Of a DNA stretch of 14,468 nucleotides, positions 821 to 14,468 are shown piece after piece. Origin of the DNA: a virus; UHGV virus genome UHGV-0284478. One strand, given 5' to 3'. Below the pieces are notes generated by a model. It did not search any database. It saw only the letters and a list, made by a program, of their open reading frames with translations, and had not been told where the DNA came from. A program made the position numbers and the translations under genes. Every line of letters begins with the position of its first letter. Within the stretch, counting starts at the first letter, position 1.

Positions 821-2120
821 TCTCCCGCATATTGCCAGTATGGCCTTTAATGAGCCGCTGATGCTTGAACCCGCCTATGCGCGGGTTTTCTTTTGTGCGC
901 TTGCAGGCCAGCTTGGGATCAGCCGCCTGACGGATGCAGTATCCGGCGACAGCCTGACTGCCGGAGAGGCACCCGCGGCGCTGGCGTTATCCGTTGATGA
1001 TGACGGACCACGACAGGCCCGCAGTTATCAGGTCATGAACGGCATCGCCGTGCTGCCGGTGTCCGGCACGCTGGTCAGTCGGACGCGAGCGCTGCAGCCG
1101 TATTCGGGGATGACCGGTTACAACGGCATTATCGCCCGTCTGCAACAGGCTGCCAGCGACCCGATGGTGGACGGCATTCTGCTCGATATGGATACGCCAG
1201 GCGGGATGGTGGCAGGGGCATTTGACTGCGCTGACATCATCGCCCGTGTGCGTGACATAAAGCCGGTATGGGCGCTGGCCAACGACATGAACTGCAGTGC
1301 AGGTCAGTTGCTTGCCAGTGCCGCCTCCCGGCGTCTGGTCACGCAGACCGCCCGGACAGGCTCCATCGGCGTCATGATGGCTCACAGTAATTACGGTGCT
1401 GCGCTGGAGAAACAGGGTGTGGAAATCACGCTGATTTACAGCGGCAGCCATAAGGTGGATGGCAACCCCTACAGCCATCTTCCGGATGACGTCCGGGAGA
1501 CACTGCAGTCCCGGATGGACGCAACCCGCCGGATGTTTGCACAGAAGGTGTCGGCATATACCGGCCTGTCCGTGCAGGCTGTGCTGGATACCGAGGCTGC
1601 AGTGTACAGCGGTCAGGAGGCCATTGATGCCGGACTGGCTGATGAACTTGTTAACAGTACCGATGCGATCACCGTCATGCGTGATGCACTGGATGCACGT
1701 AAATCCCGTCTCTCAGGAGGGCGAATGACCAAAGAGACTCAATCAACAACTGTTTCAGCCACTGCTTCGCAGGCTGACGTTACTGAGGTGGTGCAAGCGA
1801 CGGAGGGCGAGAACGCCAGCGCGGCGCAGCCGGACGTGAACGCGCAGATCACCGCAGCGGTTGCGGCAGAAAACAGTCGCATTATGGGGATCCTCAACTG
1901 TGAGGAGGCTCACGGACGCGAAGAGCAGGCACGCGTGCTGGCCGAAACCCCCGGTATGACCGTGGAAACGGCCCGCCGCATTCTGGCAGCTGCACCACAG
2001 AGTGCACAGGCGCGCAGTGACACTGCGCTGGATCGTCTGATGCAGGGGGCACCGGCACCGCTGGCTGCAGGTAACCCGGCATCTGATGCCGTTAACGATT
2101 TGCTGAACACACCAGTGTAA
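801..2120 (+). CDS. C: Prohead protease / capsid assembly protein C (ClpP/SppA-like serine protease family), GTG start
   Basis: GTG at 801 preceded by a strong Shine-Dalgarno GAGGAGGAG (789-797); translation from 801 (TAELRNLPHIASMAFNEPLMLEPAYARVFF…) matches lambda gpC N-terminus; length 439 aa equals lambda gpC; overlaps the end of B by 20 nt. The ORF-track start at 687 is an in-frame upstream Met inside B and is not used. Confidence 0.88.
   Translation: MTAELRNLPHIASMAFNEPLMLEPAYARVFFCALAGQLGISRLTDAVSGDSLTAGEAPAALALSVDDDGPRQARSYQVMNGIAVLPVSGTLVSRTRALQPYSGMTGYNGIIARLQQAASDPMVDGILLDMDTPGGMVAGAFDCADIIARVRDIKPVWALANDMNCSAGQLLASAASRRLVTQTARTGSIGVMMAHSNYGAALEKQGVEITLIYSGSHKVDGNPYSHLPDDVRETLQSRMDATRRMFAQKVSAYTGLSVQAVLDTEAAVYSGQEAIDAGLADELVNSTDAITVMRDALDARKSRLSGGRMTKETQSTTVSATASQADVTEVVQATEGENASAAQPDVNAQITAAVAAENSRIMGILNCEEAHGREEQARVLAETPGMTVETARRILAAAPQSAQARSDTALDRLMQGAPAPLAAGNPASDAVNDLLNTPV
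1515..2120 (+). CDS. nu3: Scaffolding protein Nu3, translated from an internal in-frame start within C (shares C-terminus and stop with C)
   Basis: In-frame ATG at 1515 (MDATRRMFAQKVSAYTGLS…), 714 nt downstream of the C start, which is the same offset I recall for lambda Nu3 within C; nested in-frame arrangement is established for lambda. Confidence 0.7.
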   Translation: MDATRRMFAQKVSAYTGLSVQAVLDTEAAVYSGQEAIDAGLADELVNSTDAITVMRDALDARKSRLSGGRMTKETQSTTVSATASQADVTEVVQATEGENASAAQPDVNAQITAAVAAENSRIMGILNCEEAHGREEQARVLAETPGMTVETARRILAAAPQSAQARSDTALDRLMQGAPAPLAAGNPASDAVNDLLNTPV

Positions 2121-2482: not shown

Positions 2483-2504
2483 GGCCGCCTGTGCGGCTTT
2501 TTTT
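2483..2504 (+). terminator. Intergenic stem-loop plus T7 run between D and E (partial or attenuating intrinsic terminator)
   Basis: GCCGC (2484-2488) pairs with GCGGC (2493-2497) around a CTGT loop, followed directly by TTTTTTT (2498-2504); a second T-run (2511-2517) precedes the E start codon. Confidence 0.5.
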
Positions 2505-2517
2505 ACGGGATTTTTTT

Positions 2518-3543
2518 ATGTCGATGTACACAACCGCCCAGCTGCTGGCGGCAAATGAGAAGAAATTTAAGTTTGATCCGCTGTTTCTGCGTCTCTTTTT
2601 CCGTGAGAGCTATCCCTTCACCACGGAGAAAGTCTATCTCTCACAAATTCCGGGACTGGTAAACATGGCGCTGTACGTTTCGCCGATTGTTTCCGGTGAG
2701 GTTATCCGCTCCCGTGGCGGCTCCACCTCTGAATTTACACCGGGATATGTCAAGCCGAAGCATGAGGTGAATCCGCAGATGACCCTGCGTCGCCTGCCGG
2801 ATGAAGATCCACAGAATCTGGCGGACCCGGCTTACCGCCGCCGTCGCATCATTCTGCAGAACATGCGAGACGAAGAGCTGGCCATTGCTCAGGTCGAAGA
2901 GATGCAGGCCGTTTCTGCCGTGCTTAAGGGCAAATATACCATGACCGGTGAAGCCTTCGATCCGGTTGAGGTGGATATGGGCCGCAGTGAGGCGAATAAC
3001 ATCACGCAGTCCGGCGGCACGGAGTGGAGCAAGCGTGACAAGTCCACGTATGATCCGACCGACGATATCGAAGCCTACGCGCTGAACGCCAGCGGAGTGG
3101 TGAATATCATCGTGTTTGATCCGAAAGGCTGGGCGCTGTTCCGTTCCTTCAAAGCCGTCAGGGAGAAGCTGGATACTCGTCGCGGCTCTCATTCCGAGCT
3201 GGAGACAGCGGTGAAAGACCTGGGCAAAGCGGTGTCCTACAAGGGGATGTATGGCGATGTGGCCATCGTCGTGTATTCCGGACAGTACGTGGAAAACGGC
3301 GTCAAAAAGAACTTCCTGCCGGACAACACGATGGTGCTGGGGAACACTCAGGCACGCGGTCTGCGCACCTATGGCTGCATTCAGGATGCGGACGCACAGC
3401 GCGAAGGCATTAACTCCTCTGCCCGTTACCCGAAAAACTGGGTGACCACCGGCGATCCGGCGCGTGAGTTCACCATGATTCAGTCAGCACCGCTGATGCT
3501 GCTGGCTGACCCTGATGAGTTCGTGTCCGTACAACTGGCGTAA
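2518..3543 (+). CDS. E: Major capsid protein E (HK97-fold major head protein)
   Basis: Translation from ATG 2518 (MSMYTTAQLLAANEKKFKFDPLFLRLFFRESYPFTTEKVYLSQIPGLVNMALYVSP…) is recognisable as lambda gpE; 341 aa as in lambda. The ORF-track start at 2491 adds 9 non-homologous residues and overlaps the upstream hairpin, so it is rejected. Confidence 0.93.
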   Translation: MSMYTTAQLLAANEKKFKFDPLFLRLFFRESYPFTTEKVYLSQIPGLVNMALYVSPIVSGEVIRSRGGSTSEFTPGYVKPKHEVNPQMTLRRLPDEDPQNLADPAYRRRRIILQNMRDEELAIAQVEEMQAVSAVLKGKYTMTGEAFDPVEVDMGRSEANNITQSGGTEWSKRDKSTYDPTDDIEAYALNASGVVNIIVFDPKGWALFRSFKAVREKLDTRRGSHSELETAVKDLGKAVSYKGMYGDVAIVVYSGQYVENGVKKNFLPDNTMVLGNTQARGLRTYGCIQDADAQREGINSSARYPKNWVTTGDPAREFTMIQSAPLMLLADPDEFVSVQLA

Positions 3544-3546
3544 TCG

Positions 3547-3570
3547 TGGCCCTTCGGGGCCATTTTCTCT
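3547..3570 (+). terminator. Intergenic GC stem with TTCG tetraloop followed by a T-rich tract, between E and FI
   Basis: TGGCCC (3547-3552) / TTCG loop / GGGCCA (3557-3562), followed by TTTTCTCT (3563-3570); sits 5 nt after the E stop. Confidence 0.4.
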
Positions 3571-4356: not shown

Positions 4357-4935
4357 ATGGCCATAAAAGGTCTTGAGCAGGCCGTTGAAAACCTCAGCCG
4401 TATCAGCAAAACGGCGGTGCCTGGTGCCGCCGCAATGGCCATTAACCGCGTTGCTTCATCCGCGATATCGCAGTCGGCGTCACAGGTTGCCCGTGAGACA
4501 AAGGTACGCCGGAAACTGGTAAAGGAAAGGGCCAGGCTGAAAAGGGCCACGGTCAAAAATCCGCAGGCCAGAATCAGGGTTAACCGGGGGGATTTGCCCG
4601 TAATAAAGCTGGGTAACGCGCGGATTGTCCTGTCCCGACGCAGGCGTCGTAAAAAGGGGCAGCGTTCAGCCCTGAAAGGTGGCGGCAGCGTGCTTGTGGT
4701 GGGAAACCGTCGTATTCCCGGCGCGTTTATTCAGCAACTGAAAAATGGCCGGTGGCATGTCATGCAGCGTGTGGCCGGGAAAAACCGTTACCCCATTGAT
4801 GTGGTGAAAATCCCGATGGCGGTGCCGCTTACCACGGCGTTTAAACAGAATATTGAACGGATACGGCGTGAACGTCTTCCGAAAGAGCTGGGCTATGCGC
4901 TGCAGCATCAACTGAGAATGGTAATAAAGCGATGA
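4357..4935 (+). CDS. Z: Tail completion / minor tail protein Z
   Basis: 192-aa translation MAIKGLEQAVENLSRISKTAVPGAAAMAINRV… is recognisable as lambda gpZ (same length); AAAGGGGG Shine-Dalgarno; follows FII. Confidence 0.9.
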   Translation: MAIKGLEQAVENLSRISKTAVPGAAAMAINRVASSAISQSASQVARETKVRRKLVKERARLKRATVKNPQARIRVNRGDLPVIKLGNARIVLSRRRRRKKGQRSALKGGGSVLVVGNRRIPGAFIQQLKNGRWHVMQRVAGKNRYPIDVVKIPMAVPLTTAFKQNIERIRRERLPKELGYALQHQLRMVIKR

Positions 4936-6929: not shown

Positions 6930-9495
6930 ACCGGTAGGCGATCTGGTCGTTGATTTAAGTCTGGATGCGGCCAGATTTGACGAGCAGATGGCCAGAGTCA
7001 GGCGTCATTTTTCCGGTACGGAAAGTGATGCGAAAAAAACAGCGGCAGTCGTTGAACAGTCGATGAACCGGCAGGCGCTGGCTGCACAGAAAGCGGGAAT
7101 TTCCGTCGGGCAGTATAAAGCCGCCATGCGTATGCTGCCTGCGCAGTTCACTGACGTGGCCACGCAGCTTGCAGGCGGGCAAAGTCCGTGGCTGATCCTG
7201 CTGCAACAGGGGGGGCAGGTGAAGGACTCCTTCGGCGGGATGATCCCCATGTTCAGGGGGCTTGCCGGTGCGATCACCCTGCCGATGGTCGGGGTCACCT
7301 CGCTGGCGGTGGCGACAGGTGCGCTGGTGTACGCCTGGTACCAGGGAGATTCCACGCTTTCAGCGTTTAATAAAACCCTGGTTCTTTCCGGTAATCAGTC
7401 CGGACTGACTGCCGATCGTATGCTGACTCTCTCAAGAGCCGGGCAGGCAGCAGGGCTGACGTTTAACCAGGCGAGAGAGTCACTGGCAGCCCTGGTGAAT
7501 GCCGGTGTGCGTGGTGGTGAACAGTTTGATGCCATCAACCAGAGTGTCGCGCGTTTTGCGTCTGCATCCGGTGTGGAGGTGGATAAAGTCGCTGAAGCCT
7601 TCGGGAAGCTGACCACTGACCCGACGTCGGGACTGATGGCGATGGCGCGCCAGTTCCGTAACGTGACGGCAGAGCAGATTGCGTATGTTGCACAGCTGCA
7701 GCGTTCCGGAGACGAGGCCGGGGCATTGCAGGCGGCGAACGATATCGCCACGAAAGGCTTTGATGAGCAGACCCGTCGCCTGAAAGAAAACATGGGAACA
7801 CTGGAGACCTGGGCGGATAAAACAGGGAAGGCATTCAAATCGATGTGGGATGCCATTCTGGATATCGGTCGTCCTGAATCCTCAGCGGATATGCTCGCCA
7901 GTGCGCAGAAGGCATTTGATGAGGCGGATAAAAAATGGCAGTGGTACCAGAGCCGGAGCCAGCGCCGGGGAAAGACCTCCTCTTTTCGTGCGAACCTTCA
8001 GGGGGCATGGGATGACCGGGAAAATGCCCGTCTGGGTCTGGCAGCGGCCACGCTGCAGTCGGATATGGAAAAAGCCGGTGAACTGGCGGCAAGGGACCGG
8101 GCTGAGCGTGAGGCGTCACAGCTGAAGTATACCGGAGAGGCGCAGAAGGCGTATGAGCGCCTGCAGACGCCGCTGGATAAATATACCGCCCGTCAGAAAG
8201 AGCTGAATAAGGCCCTGAAAGACGGAAAAATCCTGCAGGCGGATTACAACACGCTGATGGCGTCGGCAAAAAAGGATTATGAATCGACGCTGAAAAAGCC
8301 GTCAGGTGTGAAGGTGTCTGCCGGTGAGCGCCAGGAAGACCGGGCGCATGCAGCCATGCTGGCGCTTGAAACCGAGCTCAGGACGCTGGAAAAACACAGC
8401 GGTGTGAATGAGAAAATCAGCCAGCAGCGCCGGGATTTATGGGAAGCGGAAAATCAGTATGTGGTCCTGAAAGAGGCCGCCACGAAACGGCAGTTATCTG
8501 AGCAGGAAAAATCCCTGCTGGCCCATGAGAAAGAAACGCTGGAGTACAAACGCCAGCTTGCTGAGCTGGGCGACAAGATTGAACACCAGAAACGGCTGAA
8601 TGAGCTGGCACAGCAGGCGGCGCGGTTTGAACAGCAGCAGAGCGCGAAGCAGGCGGCAATCAGCGCAAAAGCCCGCGGCCTCACTGACCGTCAGGCGCAG
8701 CGGGAGTCGGAAGAGCAGCGCCTTCGTGAGGTGTACGGTGATAATCCGGCTGCGCTGGCGAAGGCCACATCTGCACTGAAGAACACCTGGTCTGCGGAGG
8801 AGCAGCTTCGTGGAAGCTGGATGGCCGGGATGAAGTCCGGCTGGGGCGAGTGGGCGGAAAGTGCGACGGACAGTTTTTCGCAGGTTAAAAACGCGGCCAC
8901 GCAGACCTTTGACGGTATTGCACAGAATATGGCAGCGATGCTGACCGGCAGCGAACAGAACTGGCGTGGTTTCACCCGTTCTGTGCTGTCCATGCTGACA
9001 GAGATTTTTCTGAAGCAGGCGATGGTGGGGATAGTCGGGAGTATCGGCAGCGCCATTGGCGGGGCTGTTGGTGGCGGCGCATCCGCGTCAGGCGGTACAG
9101 CCATTCAGGCTGCGGCGGCGAACTTCCATTTCGCGACCGGGGGATTTACGGGGACGGGGGGTAAATATGAACCTGCGGGGATTGTTCATCGCGGGGAGTT
9201 TGTCTTCACGAAGGAGGCGACCAGCCGGATTGGTGTCGGCAATCTGTACCGCCTGATGCGGGGCTATGCGGAAGGTGGTTATGTCGGCGGTGCCGGAAGT
9301 CCGGCGCAGATGCGGCGGGCGGAAGGCATTAATTTTAATCAGAACAATCACGTGGTGATTCAGAACGACGGCCCCAACGGGCGGGCAGGGCCGCAGCTGA
9401 TGAAAGCGGTGTATGAGATGGCCCGCAAGGGGGCACAGGATGAACTCCGGCTGCAGTTGCGTGATGGCGGTATGTTATCAGGGAGCGGTGGATGA
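6922..9495 (+). CDS. H: Tail tape measure protein H (857 aa)
   Basis: N-terminus MAEPVGDLVVDLSLDAARFDEQMARVRRHFSGTESDAKKTAAVVEQS… and the Gly-rich hydrophobic C-terminal segment (GIVGSIGSAIGGAVGGGASASGG…) are recognisable as lambda gpH; position between G-T and M; ATGA overlap with M. Confidence 0.92.
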   Translation: MAEPVGDLVVDLSLDAARFDEQMARVRRHFSGTESDAKKTAAVVEQSMNRQALAAQKAGISVGQYKAAMRMLPAQFTDVATQLAGGQSPWLILLQQGGQVKDSFGGMIPMFRGLAGAITLPMVGVTSLAVATGALVYAWYQGDSTLSAFNKTLVLSGNQSGLTADRMLTLSRAGQAAGLTFNQARESLAALVNAGVRGGEQFDAINQSVARFASASGVEVDKVAEAFGKLTTDPTSGLMAMARQFRNVTAEQIAYVAQLQRSGDEAGALQAANDIATKGFDEQTRRLKENMGTLETWADKTGKAFKSMWDAILDIGRPESSADMLASAQKAFDEADKKWQWYQSRSQRRGKTSSFRANLQGAWDDRENARLGLAAATLQSDMEKAGELAARDRAEREASQLKYTGEAQKAYERLQTPLDKYTARQKELNKALKDGKILQADYNTLMASAKKDYESTLKKPSGVKVSAGERQEDRAHAAMLALETELRTLEKHSGVNEKISQQRRDLWEAENQYVVLKEAATKRQLSEQEKSLLAHEKETLEYKRQLAELGDKIEHQKRLNELAQQAARFEQQQSAKQAAISAKARGLTDRQAQRESEEQRLREVYGDNPAALAKATSALKNTWSAEEQLRGSWMAGMKSGWGEWAESATDSFSQVKNAATQTFDGIAQNMAAMLTGSEQNWRGFTRSVLSMLTEIFLKQAMVGIVGSIGSAIGGAVGGGASASGGTAIQAAAANFHFATGGFTGTGGKYEPAGIVHRGEFVFTKEATSRIGVGNLYRLMRGYAEGGYVGGAGSPAQMRRAEGINFNQNNHVVIQNDGPNGRAGPQLMKAVYEMARKGAQDELRLQLRDGGMLSGSGG

Positions 9496-10529: not shown

Positions 10530-11273
10530 ATGACACAGACTGAATCAGCGATTCTGGCGCATGCCCGGCGGTGTGCGCCTGCGGAGTCGTGCGGCTTCGT
10601 GATAAGCACGCCGGAGGGGGAGTGGTATATCCCTTGTGTGAATATTTCTGCAGAGCCGGAGGCGTATTTTCGTATCGCACCGGAAGACTGGCTGCGGGCA
10701 GAGATGCAGGGGGAGATTGTGGCACTGGTCCACAGTCATCCCGGTGGGCTGCCCTGGCTGAGCGAGGCTGACCGGCGGCTGCAGATAAAAAGCGCACTGC
10801 CCTGGTGGCTGGTCTGCCGGGGTGACATTCACAAATTCCGCTGCGTGCCGCACCTGACGGGACGGCGCTTTGAGCACGGGGTGACGGACTGTTACACCCT
10901 GTTCCGGGATGCATACCATCTGGCGGGGACTGAAATGCCGGATTTTCATCGCGAGGATGACTGGTGGCGCCACGGTCAGAACCTTTACCTGGACAATATG
11001 GCGGTCACCGGCTTTTACCGGGTGCCCCTGTCCTCTGCACAGGCGGGCGATATTCTGCTGTGCTGCTTTGGTGCTTCGGTACCGAACCATGCCGCCATTT
11101 ACTGCGGCAACGGTGAGCTGCTTCACCATCTGCCTGAACAACTGAGTAAACGGGAGAGGTATTCCGAAAAATGGCAACGACGAACGCATTCTGTCTGGCG
11201 TCACCGCCACTGGCACGCATCTGCCTTCACGGGGATTTGCAACGATTTGGCCGCCGCCTCAGCCTGTATGTGA
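10530..11273 (+). CDS. K: Tail tip assembly protein K (JAB/MPN metallo-isopeptidase motif followed by an NlpC/P60-like region)
   Basis: Translation MTQTESAILAHARRCAPAESCGFVISTPEGEWYIPCVNIS… is recognisable as lambda gpK; contains the JAMM-type motif HSHPGGLPWLSEAD (HxH-x7-S-x2-D) with a Glu about 50 residues upstream; ATG at 10530 is the first in-frame ATG after the L stop. Confidence 0.85.
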   Translation: MTQTESAILAHARRCAPAESCGFVISTPEGEWYIPCVNISAEPEAYFRIAPEDWLRAEMQGEIVALVHSHPGGLPWLSEADRRLQIKSALPWWLVCRGDIHKFRCVPHLTGRRFEHGVTDCYTLFRDAYHLAGTEMPDFHREDDWWRHGQNLYLDNMAVTGFYRVPLSSAQAGDILLCCFGASVPNHAAIYCGNGELLHHLPEQLSKRERYSEKWQRRTHSVWRHRHWHASAFTGICNDLAAASACM

Positions 11274-11851
11274 ACACGGCAGCGGAAGCCATTCGCGCCC
11301 TGTCGATGCAGATGCCGGGCTTTCGCCGTCAGATGAACGAAGGCTGGTACCAGATACGTATTGCCGGTGATGACACGGCACCGGAGGCGGTGTATGCCCG
11401 TCTTCACGAACAGCTGGGTGAGGGAACGGTCATCCACATTGTGCCGCGACTGGCCGGGGCCGGAAAGGGTGGACTGCAGATTGTGCTGGGGGCGGCAGCC
11501 ATCGTGGGCTCTTTCTTCACGGCCGGAGGCTCGATGGCGTTATGGGGTACAGCCCTGAGTGCCGGTGGTTTTTCTGCCACCACGATGCTGTTTTCACTGG
11601 GTGCCAGCATGATACTGGGCGGAGTGGCCCAGATGCTGGCCCCGAAGGCAAAAACACCGGATTACCGCGCAACGGATAACGGCAGACAGAACACGTACTT
11701 TTCCTCGCTGGATAACATGATTGCCCAGGGGAACCCGATGCCGGTGCCTTACGGGGAAATGCTGGTTGGCTCCCGCCGTATATCCCAGGACATCAGCACC
11801 CGTGATGAAGGCGGGGGCGGAAAGGTCGTGGTTATCGGGCGGCAGGGGTAA
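11171..11851 (+). CDS. I: Tail tip assembly protein I
   Basis: 226-aa translation (…ARICLHGDLQRFGRRLSLYVNTAAEAIRAL … GNPMPVPYGEMLVGSRRISQDISTRDEGGGGKVVVIGRQG) is recognisable as lambda gpI; overlaps the 3' end of K by 103 nt in another frame, as in lambda. Confidence 0.88.
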   Translation: MATTNAFCLASPPLARICLHGDLQRFGRRLSLYVNTAAEAIRALSMQMPGFRRQMNEGWYQIRIAGDDTAPEAVYARLHEQLGEGTVIHIVPRLAGAGKGGLQIVLGAAAIVGSFFTAGGSMALWGTALSAGGFSATTMLFSLGASMILGGVAQMLAPKAKTPDYRATDNGRQNTYFSSLDNMIAQGNPMPVPYGEMLVGSRRISQDISTRDEGGGGKVVVIGRQG

Positions 11852-11856
11852 AAAGA

Positions 11857-11896
11857 ATAAAAAAATCCCGCAGTGATCGCGGACAGGAACTGCGGG
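11857..11896 (-). terminator. Intrinsic (rho-independent) terminator on the minus strand, convergent with the end of I
   Basis: Minus-strand RNA would read CCCGCAG-(16-nt loop)-CUGCGGG then A-UUUUUUU-AUUCUUUU; stem arms at 11867-11873 and 11890-11896, U-tract complementary to the A-run at 11856-11866 on the + strand. Confidence 0.5.
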
Positions 11897-11955
11897 AGAG
11901 TTACGAAGATTAAGTGTAAGGAATTATTCTTATATCACGACAAAAAAATTAACGC
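11857..11955 (-). ncRNA. Candidate ~100-nt small RNA (moron-like), from the predicted sigma70 promoter to the minus-strand intrinsic terminator
   Basis: Promoter and terminator are in the correct order and spacing on the minus strand; the interval has no ORF with a ribosome-binding site; it lies in an AT-rich island between I and J. Transcript ends are predictions only. Confidence 0.3.
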
Positions 11956-11961
11956 AGAGAA

Positions 11962-11989
11962 ATTATACGCGCCACAGTCAGTGTGTGAA
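11962..11989 (-). promoter_or_regulatory. Sigma70-type promoter on the minus strand: -35 TTCACA, 16-bp spacer, -10 TATAAT
   Basis: Reverse complement of 11984-11989 is TTCACA (5/6 match to TTGACA); reverse complement of 11962-11967 is TATAAT (6/6); spacer is 16 bp; predicted start near 11953-11955. Confidence 0.4.
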
Positions 11990-12062
11990 AATGTGAAGAT
12001 ATTCAGAATTTTTATGCCATTACCGGTTTTAACCAACAGGATTATCGGTGGGCATGAAAGAA

Positions 12063-12097
12063 AACCCCGGTATCTGCTGATACCGGGGTTTCTCTTT
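12063..12097. terminator. Strong 12-bp hairpin with T-rich tracts on both sides (bidirectional terminator-like element) within the I-J island
   Basis: AACCCCGGTATC (12063-12074) / TGCT loop / GATACCGGGGTT (12079-12090); + strand then reads TCTCTTT; on the minus strand the stem is followed by TTTTCTTTC. Confidence 0.45.
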
Positions 12098-12194
12098 AGC
12101 ATGGCAGAAATGTGTTTCATGCTTTTCGGGCGAAGGATATCCGACTTCTGTACGGAATGGCAAGTGGCGGTTAATTTATTCAGGGGAAGGCTGT

Positions 12195-14353
12195 ATGGGA
12201 AAAGGTGGCGGTAAGGCACACACGCCTCGTGAGGCGAAGGATAATCTCAAATCCACGCAGATGATGAGTGTGATTGATGCGATTGGTGAGGGACCGATAG
12301 AAGGTCCGGTGAAGGGACTGCAGAGTATTCTGGTGAACAAAACCCCGCTGACGGACACGGACGGTAATCCCGTGATACACGGTGTGACCGCGGTCTGGCG
12401 TGCCGGGGAGCAGGAGCAGACACCACCGGAAGGCTTTGAGTCCTCCGGAGCTGAAACCGGACTGGGCGTGGAAGTGACGAAGGCAAAATCGGTGACGCGC
12501 ACCATTACGTCCGCGAACATTGACCGCCTGCGGGTTACCTTCGGGGTGCAGTCACTGGTGGAGACCACCTCAAAGGGTGACCGTAACCCGGCAACCGTCC
12601 GCCTGCTGATTCAGTTACAGCGTAACGGTAACTGGGTGACAGAAAAGGACGTCACCATTAACGGCAAGACCACCTCACAGTTCCTGGCCTCGGTGATTCT
12701 GGATAATCTGCCTCCCCGGCCCTTTAACATCCGGATGGTCAGGGAGACGGCGGACAGCACCACGGACCAGCTGCAGAATAAGACGCTGTGGTCGTCATAC
12801 ACCGAAATCATCGATGTGAAACAGTGCTACCCGAACACGGCCATTGTGGGGCTGCAGGTGGATGCGGAGCAGTTCGGCGGCCAGCAGATGACGGTGAACT
12901 ACCATATCCGCGGTCGTATCATCCAGGTGCCGTCAAACTATGACCCGGAAAAACGCACGTACAGTGGTATCTGGGACGGCAGTCTGAAACCGGCATACAG
13001 CAACAACCCGGCCTGGTGCCTGTGGGACATGCTGACTCACCCGCGCTACGGCATGGGAAAACGTCTGGGGGCGGCGGATGTGGACAAGTGGGCGCTGTAT
13101 GCCATCGGGCAGTACTGCGATCAGACGGTCCCGGATGGTTTCGGGGGGACCGAGCCGCGGATGACCTTTAATGCGTACCTGGCACAACAGCGTAAGGCGT
13201 GGGACGTTCTCAGTGATTTCTGCTCTGCGATGCGCTGTATGCCGGTATGGAACGGTCAGACGCTGACGTTCGTTCAGGACCGCCCGTCGGATGTGGTGTG
13301 GCCGTACACCAACAGCGATGTGGTGGTGGATGATAACGGCGTGGGATTCCGCTACAGCTTCAGTGCCCTGAAGGACCGGCACACGGCGGTGGAGGTGAAT
13401 TACACCGACCCGCAGAACGGCTGGCAGACCTCCACGGAACTGGTGGAAGACCCGGAAGCCATACTGCGCTACGGACGCAACCTGCTGAAGATGGACGCGT
13501 TCGGCTGTACCAGCCGCGGTCAGGCCCACCGTGCCGGACTGTGGGTGATAAAGACCGAACTGCTGGAAACGCAGACGGTGGATTTCACGCTCGGGTCTCA
13601 GGGGCTGCGGCACACACCCGGTGACATCATTGAAATCTGTGATAACGACTATGCCGGGATCCTGACCGGCGGACGTGTCCTGTCCATTGATGCTGCCACC
13701 CGCACCCTGACGCTGGACCGTGAAGTGACACTTCCGGAGACCGGTGCCGCCACGGTGAACCTGATTAACGGCAGCGGTAAGCCAGTGAGTGTGGACATCA
13801 CCGAACACCCCGCGCCGGACCGGATACAGGTCAGTACCCTGCCTGATGGTGTGGAGACATACGGGGTGTGGGGACTCTCCCTGCCGTCACTGCGCCGTCG
13901 CCTGTTCCGCTGTGTCTCCGTCCGGGAAAACACGGACGGCACCTTTGCCATCACGGCGGTGCAGCACGTACCGGAAAAAGAAGCCATCGTGGATAACGGT
14001 GCCCGCTTTGAGCCGCAGTCAGGTTCCCTGAACAGCGTCATCCCACCGGCAGTGCAGCACCTGACGGTGGAGGTGAGCGCAACTGACGGCCAGTATCTGG
14101 CGCAGGCGAAATGGGACACGCCGCGGGTGGTGAAGGGTGTGCGCTTCAGTCTGCGCCTGACCAGTGGTAAGGGAACGGATGCCAGACTGGTGACCACCGC
14201 CATCACCGCAGACACGGAGCACCGTTTCAGCGGCCTGCCGCTCGGGGAATACACCCTGACGGTGCGGGCGATAAACAGCTATGGCCAGCAGGGTGAACCT
14301 GCCACCACCACCTTCCGGATTGCCGCACCGGCAGCACCGTCGCGGATTGAGCT
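12195..14353 (+). CDS. J: Host specificity / central tail fibre protein J, N-terminal ~720 codons; 3' portion absent and replaced by an inverted duplication
   Basis: Translation MGKGGGKAHTPREAKDNLKSTQMMSVIDAIGEGPIEGPV … through …TFRIAAPAAPSRIEL is recognisable as lambda gpJ; the frame stays open to the window end but after ~14353 the sequence is the reverse complement of upstream J sequence, so the apparent C-terminus is not genuine J. Confidence 0.85.
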
Positions 14354-14468
14354 GCCGGTGCGGCAATCCGGAAGGTGGTGGTGGCAGGTTCACCCTGCTG
14401 GCCATAGCTGTTTATCGCCCGCACCGTCAGGGTGTATTCCCCGAGCGGCAGGCCGCTGAAACGGTGCT
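14218..14468. repeat. Perfect inverted repeat: arm 14218-14335 is the reverse complement of arm 14351-14468, with a 15-bp spacer (14336-14350)
   Basis: Checked by hand over the full 118 bp of each arm; the right arm runs into the window edge, so the true arm length is unknown. The minus-strand ORF 14227-14424 encodes the same peptide as J for this reason. Confidence 0.9.

What the first reader, a model, noticed from the sequence alone, without database searches (positions are those of the whole stretch)
12056..12100. Second, bidirectional terminator-like hairpin upstream of J
A 12-bp GC-cored stem (12063-12074 with 12079-12090, TGCT loop) is flanked by T-rich tracts on both strands. It lies upstream of the predicted minus-strand promoter and is therefore not part of the candidate sRNA. 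It could insulate the island from read-through in either direction, terminate an antisense transcript entering from J, or be the 3' end of a second small transcript. Late-operon transcription must pass through it to express J, which is feasible under Q-type antitermination.
Basis: seen in the sequence. Interest (0 to 1): 0.45.

Follow-up and report, generated by a model that had tools for sequence, protein, structure and literature searches.

The report
Terminator hairpin before tail gene J
The hairpin is real and looks like an ordinary two-way transcription stop signal, and comparison with other phages suggests it is the local version of a stop signal that many lambda-like phages, including lambda itself, keep just in front of tail-tip gene J, with accessory genes such as the PasB small RNA inserted upstream of it.

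Summary
Positions 12062-12091 form a perfect 13-bp stem with a TGCT loop. It has a T-rich tail on the + strand (TTTCTCTTT) and on the - strand (TTTTCTTTC), and it is the only perfect hairpin of 9 bp or more in the 14.5-kb window.

The neighbouring minus-strand sRNA is a homologue of the published PasB (EcOnc22-24). The hairpin does not belong to that sRNA unit. Related prophages with the same PasB promoter region carry an unrelated hairpin at the same place, with a T run on the + strand only and compensatory changes. Phage lambda, Serratia phage Stoker and Klebsiella phage 020009 have a GC hairpin plus T run just upstream of J without PasB, as do all 80 HK022-type loci examined. In the HK022 type, seven unrelated upstream contexts precede it, six of them inserted DNA.

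Best reading: a conserved pre-J intrinsic terminator. It would stop ordinary RNA polymerase moving rightward and be read through by Q-modified polymerase. Its minus-strand competence is particular to this variant.

No evidence for a second sRNA was found. Termination in vivo is untested. This is an ordinary kind of element, and the positional pattern is mildly interesting.

The parts
12062..12091 (.). Perfect 13-bp inverted repeat with TGCT loop. The GC core is 12065-12074 with 12079-12088. This is the terminator hairpin of the finding.
   Evidence: Sequence. Fold of -21.7 kcal/mol with z about -7 on both strands. Only perfect hairpin of 9 bp or more in the window.
12089..12097 (+). T tract TTTCTCTTT directly after the GC core on the + strand. 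The predicted release zone for rightward transcripts is roughly 12095-12098.
   Evidence: Sequence. 6 of the first 8 bases after the core are T. All positional counterparts in other phages have 5-7 T of 8 on this strand.
12056..12064 (-). GAAAGAAAA on the + strand, which reads TTTTCTTTC on the - strand. It is the T tract for leftward transcripts, with predicted release near 12056-12058. This tail is found only in this (class 1) variant.
   Evidence: Sequence. 7 of 8 T on the minus strand, against 0-5 of 8 in the other pre-J hairpins.
12010..12059 (+). Second, imperfect hairpin just upstream of the terminator hairpin on the + strand. It is specific to the class 1 module and its role is unknown.
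   Evidence: Fold of 12000-12062 on the + strand: -18.6 kcal/mol, z -4.1, 0 of 200 shuffles as good. The module hardly varies, so covariation cannot be tested.
12016..12194 (.). The class 1 module: the segment between the shared PasB-upstream anchor and the J start codon. It carries the hairpin and is replaced by unrelated sequence in class 2 islands.
   Evidence: Alignment A1. At least 99% identical in 1442 of 1451 E. coli records that hold it, and never seen outside I-J islands. 13 phage records hold it.
11984..12015 (.). Anchor sequence shared by class 1 and class 2 islands (TGTGAAAATGTGAAGATATTCAGAATTTTTAT). It holds the -35 element of the PasB promoter and the AT-rich DNA upstream of it.
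   Evidence: Alignment A1. Pattern scan of IMG/VR.
11962..11989 (-). Sigma-70-like promoter of the PasB homologue (TTCACA, 16 bp, TATAAT).
   Evidence: Promoter scan, 11 of 12 matches. This is a consensus match only.
11859..11955 (-). PasB / EcOnc22-24 homologue, a minus-strand Hfq-dependent sRNA with its own terminator (stem 11883..11867, then a T run). By homology with the 83-nt E2348/69 RNA the 5' end would be near 11941. The promoter prediction places it near 11955.
   Evidence: The published PasB probe AATCCCGCAGTGATCGCGGAGCT matches 11865-11884 in its first 20 bases. E2348/69 locus L006. EcOnc22 in Sakai Sp15 after a +136 coordinate correction.
11270..11851 (+). Tail assembly gene I. An upstream ATG at 11171 is also possible, as in lambda. 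The stop codon is at 11849-11851.
   Evidence: Pfam Lambda_tail_I. RefSeq annotation of the identical locus L001.
12195..14468 (+). Tail tip / host specificity gene J. It runs off the end of the window.
   Evidence: Pfam FNIII-A_GpJ, Ig_J and Phage-tail_3. RefSeq gpJ annotation.

Best explanation
The hairpin is the local version of a pre-J intrinsic terminator, a Rho-independent stop signal that many lambda-like siphoviruses keep between tail assembly gene I and tail-tip gene J.

Proposed mechanism on the + strand: an unmodified RNA polymerase moves rightward, either from gene I, across the antisense of PasB, or from any promoter active in the lysogen. It transcribes the GC-rich stem (12062-12091), pauses on the U tract (12089-12097) and is released before J. 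In lytic growth, polymerase modified by the Q antiterminator at the late promoter (outside the window) ignores the signal and expresses J.

The I-J junction is a hotspot for accessory insertions (morons). These insertions, here the PasB sRNA gene, sit between the I stop codon and this terminator. Rightward insertions therefore get a ready-made terminator, and J stays shielded from transcription in the prophage state.

This variant is also symmetrical, with an A tract upstream and a U tract downstream. It should therefore stop leftward (antisense-to-J) transcription just before the PasB promoter as well. I treat that as a variant-specific extra and not the conserved job.

Shown: the structure, its statistical significance, its positional conservation, covariation in the counterpart families, and the + strand bias.

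Inferred: actual termination in vivo, read-through by Q-modified polymerase, and the biological benefit.
For: 1. The hairpin has canonical terminator anatomy and is highly non-random.

2. Class 2 islands (E2348/69 PP6; Sakai Sp11, Sp14 and Sp15; many IMG/VR loci) share the PasB promoter-upstream anchor. They then carry an unrelated hairpin, ACAGGCA(T/C)CC-loop-GG(A/G)TGCCTGT, followed by TGTTTTT on the + strand only. Across 14 distinct variants 98.6% of cells pair. One pair switches between C-G and U-A, with U.G intermediates.

3. Phage lambda has no PasB, but its 60-bp I-J gap holds AAACCGCC-TGCG-GGCGGTTTTGTCATTT, 35 nt before the J ATG.

4. Serratia phage Stoker, HK544 and Klebsiella phage 020009 have a GC hairpin plus T6-7 directly before J.

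5. All 80 IMG/VR loci with an HK022-type J have GCCACC-NNNN-GGTGGC plus T6-8 about 14 nt before the J ATG. The DNA upstream of the hairpin falls into 7 unrelated types: the I stop codon directly, or different inserted DNA. Four of the six inserted types hold a rightward reading frame of at least 130 aa that ends just before the hairpin (a fifth, 95 aa, does too), and one holds a leftward frame.

6. In that set plus lambda, Klebsiella phage 020009 and Stoker, 98.5% of cells pair. There are 5 double-change cells, a value reached by 0 of 500 shuffles. Five inner wobble pairs are valid only in the + strand RNA.

7. Every version has a T-rich tail on the + strand. Only the window's version has one on the - strand.

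8. The complete relative PPompW has an annotated Q late-gene regulator upstream in the same orientation as the head and tail genes.
Against: - No transcript 3'-end data could be read for any of these hairpins, so termination is a prediction.
- The class 1 hairpin itself is nearly invariant. Its own covariation cannot be tested, and its link to the other versions rests on position and anatomy, not homology.
- It lies 104 nt from the J start. The distance is about 14-55 nt in the other versions.
- The element is not universal. ES18, mEp044 and Midgardsormr38 have I-J gaps of 8-13 bp with no room for it.
- The sodC-carrying class 3 islands have no obvious hairpin before J, judged by eye from the sequence.
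- One class 1 locus (L197) has lost the hairpin by a 47-bp deletion.
- In class 2, two loci carry a C.A mismatch on the + strand that would be a wobble pair on the - strand. The strand argument is therefore a majority trend and not absolute.
- No promoter that would feed rightward transcripts into the hairpin in a lysogen was identified. The only promoter-like matches nearby are on the minus strand.
Confidence: 0.6

Rival explanations
1. The main job is on the minus strand. The hairpin would be an upstream insulator for the PasB sRNA gene. It would stop antisense transcripts coming out of J, or from leftward cargo genes beyond J, before they run over the PasB promoter.
For: The minus-strand tail TTTTCTTTC is as good as the plus-strand one. 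The hairpin lies about 75 bp upstream of the PasB -35 element. Relatives such as PPompW carry leftward effector genes beyond J.
Against: Class 2 islands have the same PasB promoter region but no T tail on the minus strand (2 of 8 T), so PasB does not need such an insulator. PasB is abundant in E2348/69, which has a class 2 island. Lambda and HK022-type phages have the hairpin without PasB. No minus-strand promoter above chance level was found inside the J portion of the window. The one candidate nearby, at 12163..12134, scores 9 of 12, the scan's minimum, and the number of sites found in the window equals the number expected from shuffles.
Confidence: 0.15
2. The hairpin acts inside the read-through late mRNA rather than, or in addition to, as a terminator. 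It could be a 3'-protective stem that stabilises the upstream tail-gene message after cleavage. The extended helix of about 24 bp, which forms only in read-through RNA, could be an RNase III site, by analogy with lambda sib/tI retroregulation.
For: In read-through RNA the flanks extend the helix: 12050-12105 folds to -30.8 kcal/mol with about 24 pairs, one bulge and one internal loop. Similar terminator-like hairpins follow the major capsid gene in both this window (3546-3563) and lambda (7163-7180). Differential mRNA stability is a plausible purpose there.
Against: The uninterrupted T6-8 runs in the HK022, Klebsiella and Serratia versions are the hallmark of release signals and are not needed for a stability stem. 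The extended helix is particular to class 1 and is absent from class 2. There is no processing data.
Confidence: 0.12
3. The hairpin is the terminator of a second small RNA encoded in the class 1 module. One candidate is a + strand RNA of about 88 nt with two hairpins (about 12010-12098), divergent from PasB. The other is a - strand RNA of about 70 nt starting near 12127.
For: The + strand 12010-12059 folds into a significant hairpin directly before the terminator, giving an sRNA-like two-stem layout. A weak promoter-like match exists on the minus strand at 12163..12134.
Against: No + strand promoter was found at the scan's threshold. My reading of GATATT (11998-12003) with CAGTCA as a promoter gives only 7 of 12 matches, and that hexamer is GAGTTT in Sakai Sp15. 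The minus-strand match scores 9 of 12, at chance level. Nothing is listed in the space between PasB and J in the EPEC RIL-seq tables as held here, or in the Sakai Hfq candidate list, though those strains carry class 2. Counterpart hairpins in lambda and HK022-type phages leave no room for an RNA gene.
Confidence: 0.07
4. The 30-bp perfect palindrome works at the DNA level, as a binding site for a dimeric protein or a recombination or module-exchange point. Alternatively it simply lies inside a small protein-coding gene (the 66-codon frame 12014-12214).
For: It is a perfect palindrome. One phage record annotates a hypothetical protein over the region. Two deletions and an IS insertion have end points in or near it.
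Against: The counterpart families tolerate G.U wobble pairs and keep one-sided T runs, which points to an RNA-level signal. The 66-aa frame has no Pfam family and no Shine-Dalgarno sequence before its ATG. It is broken by natural 1-bp indels in L078/L137 and L117. The sequence is not dispersed in genomes like REP elements; every match is in an I-J island.
Confidence: 0.04

Closest known systems
Hairpin in the I-J gap of phage lambda (J02459 about 15461-15490)
   Same: Same position, between the I stop codon and the J ribosome-binding site. Same anatomy on the + strand: a GC stem with a 4-nt loop and a T-rich tail. It lies within a Q-dependent late operon.
   Different: No detectable sequence homology with the window's hairpin. 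The stem is shorter (8 bp, -9.6 kcal/mol) and the minus-strand tail is poor (4 of 8 T). It lies 35 nt from the J ATG rather than 104 nt. No PasB island lies upstream. I found no paper or record annotation that names it as a terminator.
Pre-J hairpin of HK022/HK544-type phages, Klebsiella phage 020009 and Serratia phage Stoker
   Same: A positionally fixed hairpin plus T run immediately before J, with accessory DNA inserted upstream of it. That is the same layout as PasB here.
   Different: Different sequence (GCCACC...GGTGGC). One-directional, with an uninterrupted T6-8 run. Only about 14 nt from the J start. Backed by covariation, which the invariant class 1 hairpin lacks.
Class 2 I-J islands (EPEC E2348/69 PP6; EHEC Sakai Sp11, Sp14 and Sp15) carrying PasB / EcOnc22-24
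   Same: Same I gene, PasB gene, promoter-upstream anchor and J gene, with a strong GC hairpin in the same slot.
   Different: The hairpin module is not homologous, is about 100 bp shorter, and has a T tail on the + strand only.
Bidirectional intrinsic terminators of E. coli (A tract, hairpin, U tract; described mainly between convergent genes; from my own knowledge of full-length RNA end-mapping studies)
   Same: A symmetrical A-tract/U-tract hairpin able to stop polymerase from either side.
   Different: Here the annotated neighbours (PasB leftward, J rightward) point away from the hairpin. It therefore does not sit between convergent genes. On the + strand it interrupts an operon.
Morons: accessory units with their own promoter and terminator in phage late operons (Juhala et al. 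2000, as summarised in PMC3594210)
   Same: The I-J island is a moron site. PasB has its own promoter and terminator. Terminators inside late operons are tolerated because of antitermination.
   Different: The hairpin is not PasB's terminator. It lies upstream of PasB's promoter and exists in phages with no insertion, so it belongs to the recipient operon rather than to the moron.
Insulator terminator at the edge of Tn916 (PMC11658703, abstract seen)
   Same: The concept is the same: an intrinsic terminator that keeps outside or untimely transcription from entering element genes, and that is overcome by a dedicated antitermination system.
   Different: Different element, host and antitermination mechanism. 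The insulator role here is inferred, not tested.

Membership tests
Canonical intrinsic (Rho-independent) terminator | GC-rich stem of about 5-14 bp with a short loop (3-8 nt) | tested here: met
   13-bp perfect stem with 6 G-C pairs in the 10-bp core and a 4-nt loop; -21.7 kcal/mol.
Canonical intrinsic (Rho-independent) terminator | U-rich tract of about 7-9 nt immediately 3' of the stem | tested here: met
   + strand TTTCTCTTT (7 of 9 T). - strand TTTTCTTTC (7 of 9 T). Both directly abut the GC core.
Canonical intrinsic (Rho-independent) terminator | Lies at the 3' end of a transcription unit | tested here: inconclusive
   On the + strand it follows gene I and the antisense of PasB but sits inside the late operon. 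On the - strand nothing annotated ends there.
Canonical intrinsic (Rho-independent) terminator | RNA 3' ends in the U tract in vivo, or termination in vitro | not testable with these tools
   Term-seq data for EHEC Sakai are deposited at GEO (PMC7547250). They are not readable here, and Sakai's three PasB-family (EcOnc22-24) islands are class 2.
Bidirectional terminator | A tract upstream mirroring the U tract downstream, so that both strands read hairpin plus U tract | tested here: met
   GAAAGAAAA / hairpin / TTTCTCTTT. Both strands fold equally well.
Bidirectional terminator | Placed between convergent transcription units | tested here: not met
   The flanking units, PasB (leftward) and J (rightward), diverge from it.
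Pre-J terminator of lambda-like tail operons (a grouping proposed here, not an established family) | Hairpin plus + strand T run located between the I stop (or inserted DNA) and the J start | tested here: met
   Window positions 12062-12097 lie between PasB and J. The same slot is filled in lambda, HK022-type, Klebsiella 020009, Stoker and class 2 islands.
Pre-J terminator of lambda-like tail operons (a grouping proposed here, not an established family) | Sequence homology or covariation linking this hairpin to the others | tested here: not met
   No sequence similarity to the class 2, lambda or HK022 versions. The class 1 module is at least 99% identical in 1442 of 1451 records, so covariation is not available. 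Membership rests on position and anatomy only.
Part of the PasB moron (promoter-gene-terminator cassette) | Co-occurs with and is transcribed as part of the PasB unit | tested here: not met
   It lies upstream of the PasB promoter. Class 2 islands pair the same PasB region with a different hairpin. Phages without PasB have a hairpin at that place.
Hfq-dependent sRNA 3' module (a second sRNA) | Own promoter and a discrete Hfq-bound transcript ending at the hairpin | tested here: inconclusive
   No promoter above chance. No entry at the equivalent position in the EPEC RIL-seq tables as held here or in the Sakai Hfq candidate list, both from class 2 strains. There are no data for a class 1 strain.
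Known Rfam RNA families | Score at or above a family's gathering threshold | tested here: not met
   No match at gathering thresholds in the whole window. The best sub-threshold hit over the hairpin is STnc310 at 19.4 bits against a threshold of 40, a generic terminator resemblance.
Dispersed palindromic repeats (REP/BIME-like) | Many copies scattered in intergenic regions of a genome | tested here: not met
   Median of 1 copy (range 1-4) per genome that has it, each covering the whole 179-bp module of an I-J island. The second place reported in each phage record is most likely the palindrome matching itself on the other strand, as it does within the window.

The most novel reading that the evidence does not exclude
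The class 1 module (12010-12100) may be more than a stop signal. It has two adjacent stems: hairpin A (12010-12059) and the terminator (12062-12091). Part of hairpin A's 3' arm (GATTATCGGTGGG, 12040-12052) partly resembles the terminator's 3' arm (GATACCGGGG). This could make a conditional attenuator or retroregulator that gates J and downstream cargo expression. An alternative pairing or RNase III cleavage of the extended helix could do this, possibly in response to translation or to pairing of PasB with the late mRNA. Alternatively the module could encode a second structured RNA of about 88 nt, divergent from PasB.
Probability: 0.08. Interest if true: 0.55.

Novelty: new member of a known kind. 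Interest (0 to 1): 0.25.

Why it matters
The hairpin itself is a routine intrinsic terminator. What the comparison adds is a pattern: lambda, HK022-type phages and the PasB-bearing E. coli prophages keep a terminator fixed at the left edge of gene J. The accessory insertions seen at the I-J junction sit upstream of it: the PasB sRNA and several unknown genes. The sodC insertion is the exception, because it replaces that stretch and leaves no obvious hairpin.

If the terminator works as predicted, it would explain two things. It would explain why this junction tolerates insertions, because inserted genes get a terminator and cause no polarity under Q antitermination. It would also explain how J and the virulence cargo beyond it stay silent in lysogens.

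There is a practical use as well. The hairpin is a landmark for annotating PasB-type sRNA islands in pathogenic E. coli prophages.

Tried and rejected
- Rfam. No family reaches its gathering threshold in the window. Sub-threshold hits over the hairpin are generic terminator look-alikes.
- Known EHEC prophage sRNAs. The anti-sRNAs such as AsxR and AgvB lie downstream of the late promoter PR', not in the tail region. HnrS (EcOnc10-12) lies in the lysis region of Sp10. Both were rejected. The neighbouring sRNA is instead PasB / EcOnc22-24.
- A second Hfq-bound RNA at the hairpin. The EPEC RIL-seq tables as held here and the Sakai candidate list have nothing in the PasB-to-J spacer. Those strains are class 2, so this is only weak negative evidence.
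- Dispersed repeat, or borrowed terminator of a host gene. All matches to the 179-bp module are whole I-J islands. The extra place in each phage record is most likely the palindrome matching itself.
- Small protein. The 66-codon frame has no Pfam family and is broken by natural indels.
- Covariation in the class 1 hairpin itself. This is impossible because the module is essentially invariant. Only singleton changes occur, in L010/L133, L060, L078/L137, L117 and L136.
- Published 3'-end data. [quoted passage not shown] A lambda RIL-seq preprint does not mention the I-J region. Literature searches for a named lambda I-J terminator found nothing.
- Genome-wide species scan with protein I. It returned only 5 loci, three of them probable E. 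coli contamination in unrelated assemblies.
- The consensus terminator scan. It misses both this hairpin and lambda's, probably because stem extension uses up the T run. I replaced it with my own scan and table.
Full report
**1. The observation**

The window is the late (head and tail) operon of a lambda-like prophage on the + strand. Pfam identifies the major capsid protein E (2491-3543), tail tube V, tape measure H, M, L, K, I (11270-11851) and J (from 12195). An identical E. coli locus is annotated the same way.

Between the I stop codon (11849-11851) and the J start (12195) lie 343 bp with no annotated gene. The perfect stem is one pair longer, 12062-12091.

The GC core is followed by TTTCTCTTT on the + strand and by TTTTCTTTC on the - strand. 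The hairpin folds at -21.7 kcal/mol, with z about -7 on either strand. It is the only perfect inverted repeat of 9 bp or more (loop 3-8 nt) in 14.5 kb. A stem of 12 bp or more occurs in 1% of dinucleotide-preserving shuffles.

The consensus terminator scan does not list the hairpin. Probably the stem is extended through the A/T tracts, leaving too few T after it. The lambda counterpart was missed as well.

**2. The neighbour is a known sRNA**

The minus-strand unit next to the hairpin has a promoter-like site at 11989..11962 and a terminator at 11883..11867. It matches the published northern probe for PasB, an 83-nt Hfq-dependent sRNA of EPEC E2348/69 prophage PP6 that lies between genes E2348C_1436 and 1437. 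Those genes are I and J.

In EHEC Sakai the same RNA was listed as EcOnc22, 23 and 24 in prophages Sp15, Sp14 and Sp11, at about 85 nt and destabilised without Hfq. To place EcOnc22 I derived a +136 offset between the two versions of the Sakai genome record, using the published StxS 3' end. Other prophage sRNAs do not match. The anti-sRNAs such as AsxR and AgvB lie near the late promoter, and HnrS lies in the lysis region.

**3. The island comes in classes, and the hairpin module is separable**

The island occurs in 1669 of 5426 complete E. coli genomes. I examined 80 IMG/VR loci recovered with protein I, further loci recovered with a conserved anchor pattern, and several E. coli records. They fall into three classes.

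- **Class 1 (about 343 bp, the window's type).** The 179-bp module from 12016 to the J start is at least 99% identical in 1442 of 1451 records, and it is never found outside I-J islands. This holds even where the PasB body differs by 13-19%.
- **Class 2 (234-250 bp; E2348/69, and Sakai Sp11, Sp14 and Sp15).** It shares I, PasB and a 32-bp anchor just upstream of the PasB -35 element. Unrelated sequence then follows. That sequence contains a different strong hairpin, ACAGGCA(T/C)CC-loop-GG(A/G)TGCCTGT, followed by TGTTTTT on the + strand only.
- **Class 3 (851 bp; Sakai Sp10 and others).** The PasB promoter and everything up to J are replaced by a leftward Cu/Zn superoxide dismutase gene with its own terminator. 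By eye, no obvious hairpin precedes J.

Among 14 distinct class 2 hairpin variants, 98.6% of cells pair. One pair alternates between C-G and U-A with U.G intermediates. Six wobble cells are valid only in + strand RNA, against one mismatch that would be a wobble on the other strand.

**4. The hairpin belongs to J's upstream edge, not to the PasB island**

Phage lambda has no PasB. Its 60-bp I-J gap nevertheless contains AAACCGCC-TGCG-GGCGGTTTTGTCATTT, 35 nt before the J ATG. Three other phages have a GC hairpin with T6-7 directly before J, although their J N-termini are only 33-40% identical to the window's: Serratia phage Stoker, HK544 and Klebsiella phage 020009.

All 80 IMG/VR loci with an HK022-type J carry GCCACC-NNNN-GGTGGC plus T6-8 ending about 14 nt before the J ATG. 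The DNA just upstream of that hairpin falls into seven unrelated types. One is the I stop codon itself. The other six are different inserted DNA. Four of them hold a rightward reading frame of at least 130 aa that ends just before the hairpin, a fifth holds a 95-aa rightward frame that does the same, and one holds a leftward frame.

An alignment of these hairpins with the lambda, Klebsiella and Stoker versions has 98.5% of cells paired. It has five double-change cells, a value reached by 0 of 500 shuffles. Five inner wobble pairs exist only in the + strand reading.

Every version has 5-7 T among the 8 bases after the stem on the + strand. Only the window's version also has a T-rich tail (7 of 8) on the - strand.

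The element is not universal. ES18, mEp044 and Midgardsormr38 have I-J gaps of only 8-13 bp.

**5. Most likely mechanism**

I read the hairpin as the local version of a pre-J intrinsic terminator. Unmodified polymerase moving rightward would form the stem, stall on the U tract and release before J. Polymerase modified by Q would read through. The complete relative PPompW has an annotated Q late-gene regulator upstream of the head and tail genes in the same orientation.

The I-J junction is a moron site (concept in PMC3594210). Insertions sit upstream of the terminator. That gives rightward insertions a terminator and keeps J shielded in lysogens.

The symmetry of the class 1 hairpin predicts that it also stops leftward transcription before the PasB promoter. 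That property is absent from class 2, where PasB is nevertheless well expressed. I therefore rank it as a variant-specific extra.

What is shown: anatomy, non-randomness, positional conservation, covariation in the counterparts, and strand bias. What is inferred: termination in vivo, read-through by Q-modified polymerase, and the benefit to the phage. Confidence is about 0.6.

**6. Rival readings**

- **Message stability stem or RNase III site in read-through late RNA.** The flanks extend the helix to about 24 pairs. This cannot be excluded, but it does not explain the clean T runs of the counterparts.
- **A second sRNA.** A significant second hairpin at 12010-12059 on the + strand precedes the terminator. 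No promoter above chance level was found. No Hfq-bound RNA is listed in the equivalent space in class 2 strains.
- **A DNA-level palindrome or a small gene.** This is unlikely given the wobble pairs and one-sided T runs in the counterparts, the lack of any protein family, and natural frameshifting indels.

**7.

One class 1 locus (L197) has a 47-bp deletion between two AGAAA repeats (12059-12063 and 12106-12110) that removes the hairpin. One degraded prophage has a deletion ending inside the hairpin. Three loci (L054, L056, L127) carry an IS element at about 12043. The hairpin is therefore dispensable for carriage of the prophage, but it is intact in about 1450 of 1451 records.

**8. Comparison with what is known, and verdict**

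By its features the hairpin is a canonical, symmetrical intrinsic terminator. It is not a typical bidirectional terminator by context, because its neighbours diverge from it. It is not part of the PasB moron. It matches no Rfam family.

I found no paper or record annotation naming the lambda I-J hairpin as a terminator. Terminators inside Q-dependent late operons and at morons are well known. I therefore rate it a new member of a known kind, with low to moderate interest. The positional conservation of a pre-J terminator, with a moron hotspot upstream of it, is the part worth recording. Direct 3'-end mapping is the missing test.

Noticed in passing
window 11859-11989 (- strand): The candidate sRNA next to the finding is a homologue of the published PasB (EPEC E2348/69) and EcOnc22-24 (EHEC Sakai). 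Its body is the most variable 100 bp of the region, at 80-87% identity in bins where the flanks are 96-100% identical. That fits a rapidly evolving seed region.
   Followed up: yes
L077 1783-2633, L095 8485-9335 (Sakai Sp10); class 3 islands: A leftward Cu/Zn superoxide dismutase (sodC) moron replaces the PasB promoter. The breakpoint falls between the -10 element and the predicted start site. The PasB body and terminator remain downstream of the sodC terminator, so PasB could then be made only by read-through or processing of the sodC transcript.
   Followed up: partly
window 11984-12015: A 32-bp anchor upstream of the PasB -35 element is conserved across class 1 and class 2 islands, while both flanks diverge. 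On the minus strand it reads ATAAAAATTCTGAATATCTTCACATTTTCACA, with a repeated TTCACA. It could be an UP element or a regulator site. PasB is reported to be higher under non-activating conditions in EPEC.
   Followed up: no
window 12010-12059 (+ strand): An imperfect but significant hairpin (-18.6 kcal/mol, z -4.1) lies directly upstream of the terminator hairpin. Part of its 3' arm (GATTATCGGTGGG) resembles the terminator's 3' arm (GATACCGGGG), so an alternative pairing with the terminator's 5' arm is conceivable.
   Followed up: partly
L054, L056, L127 (insertion at about window 12043): An IS3-family insertion sequence sits in the class 1 module between the PasB promoter and the hairpin in these three loci.
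   Followed up: no
window 3546-3563 and 867-888 (+ strand); lambda 7163-7180 and 4484-4505: Two other terminator-like hairpins in the late operon are shared with lambda. One lies right after the major capsid gene E. The other lies inside the window's Peptidase_S49 gene (687-2120), at the position matching lambda gene C. Together with the pre-J hairpin and those after J and lom in lambda, they suggest that the late operon is punctuated by several stop-like signals.
   Followed up: partly
L113, L121 (class 2, between hairpin and J): The heptamer CAGACAT varies in copy number (2, 3 or 4 copies) in the J leader of class 2 islands.
   Followed up: no
L089, L091, L093 (genome contigs): Near-identical E. 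coli prophage I-J sequence appears on short contigs in assemblies labelled Streptomyces flavalbus, Parendozoicomonas haliclonae and a Clostridiales MAG. This is most likely contamination of those assemblies.
   Followed up: no
Sakai NC_002695.1 versus NC_002695.2: Coordinates published against version 1 of the Sakai genome (EcOnc list, StxS ends) are 136 bp lower than in version 2 at 2.9 Mb, and the shift appears to be the same at 2.17 Mb. Without this correction EcOnc22 would be wrongly placed on the class 2 hairpin.
   Followed up: yes
window 12062-12091; lambda L308 about 15461-15490: The consensus terminator scan misses hairpins whose upstream A-rich or G-rich bases can pair with the T run, apparently because the extended stem uses up the tail. 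Symmetrical terminators are therefore likely to be under-reported by that scan.
   Followed up: yes
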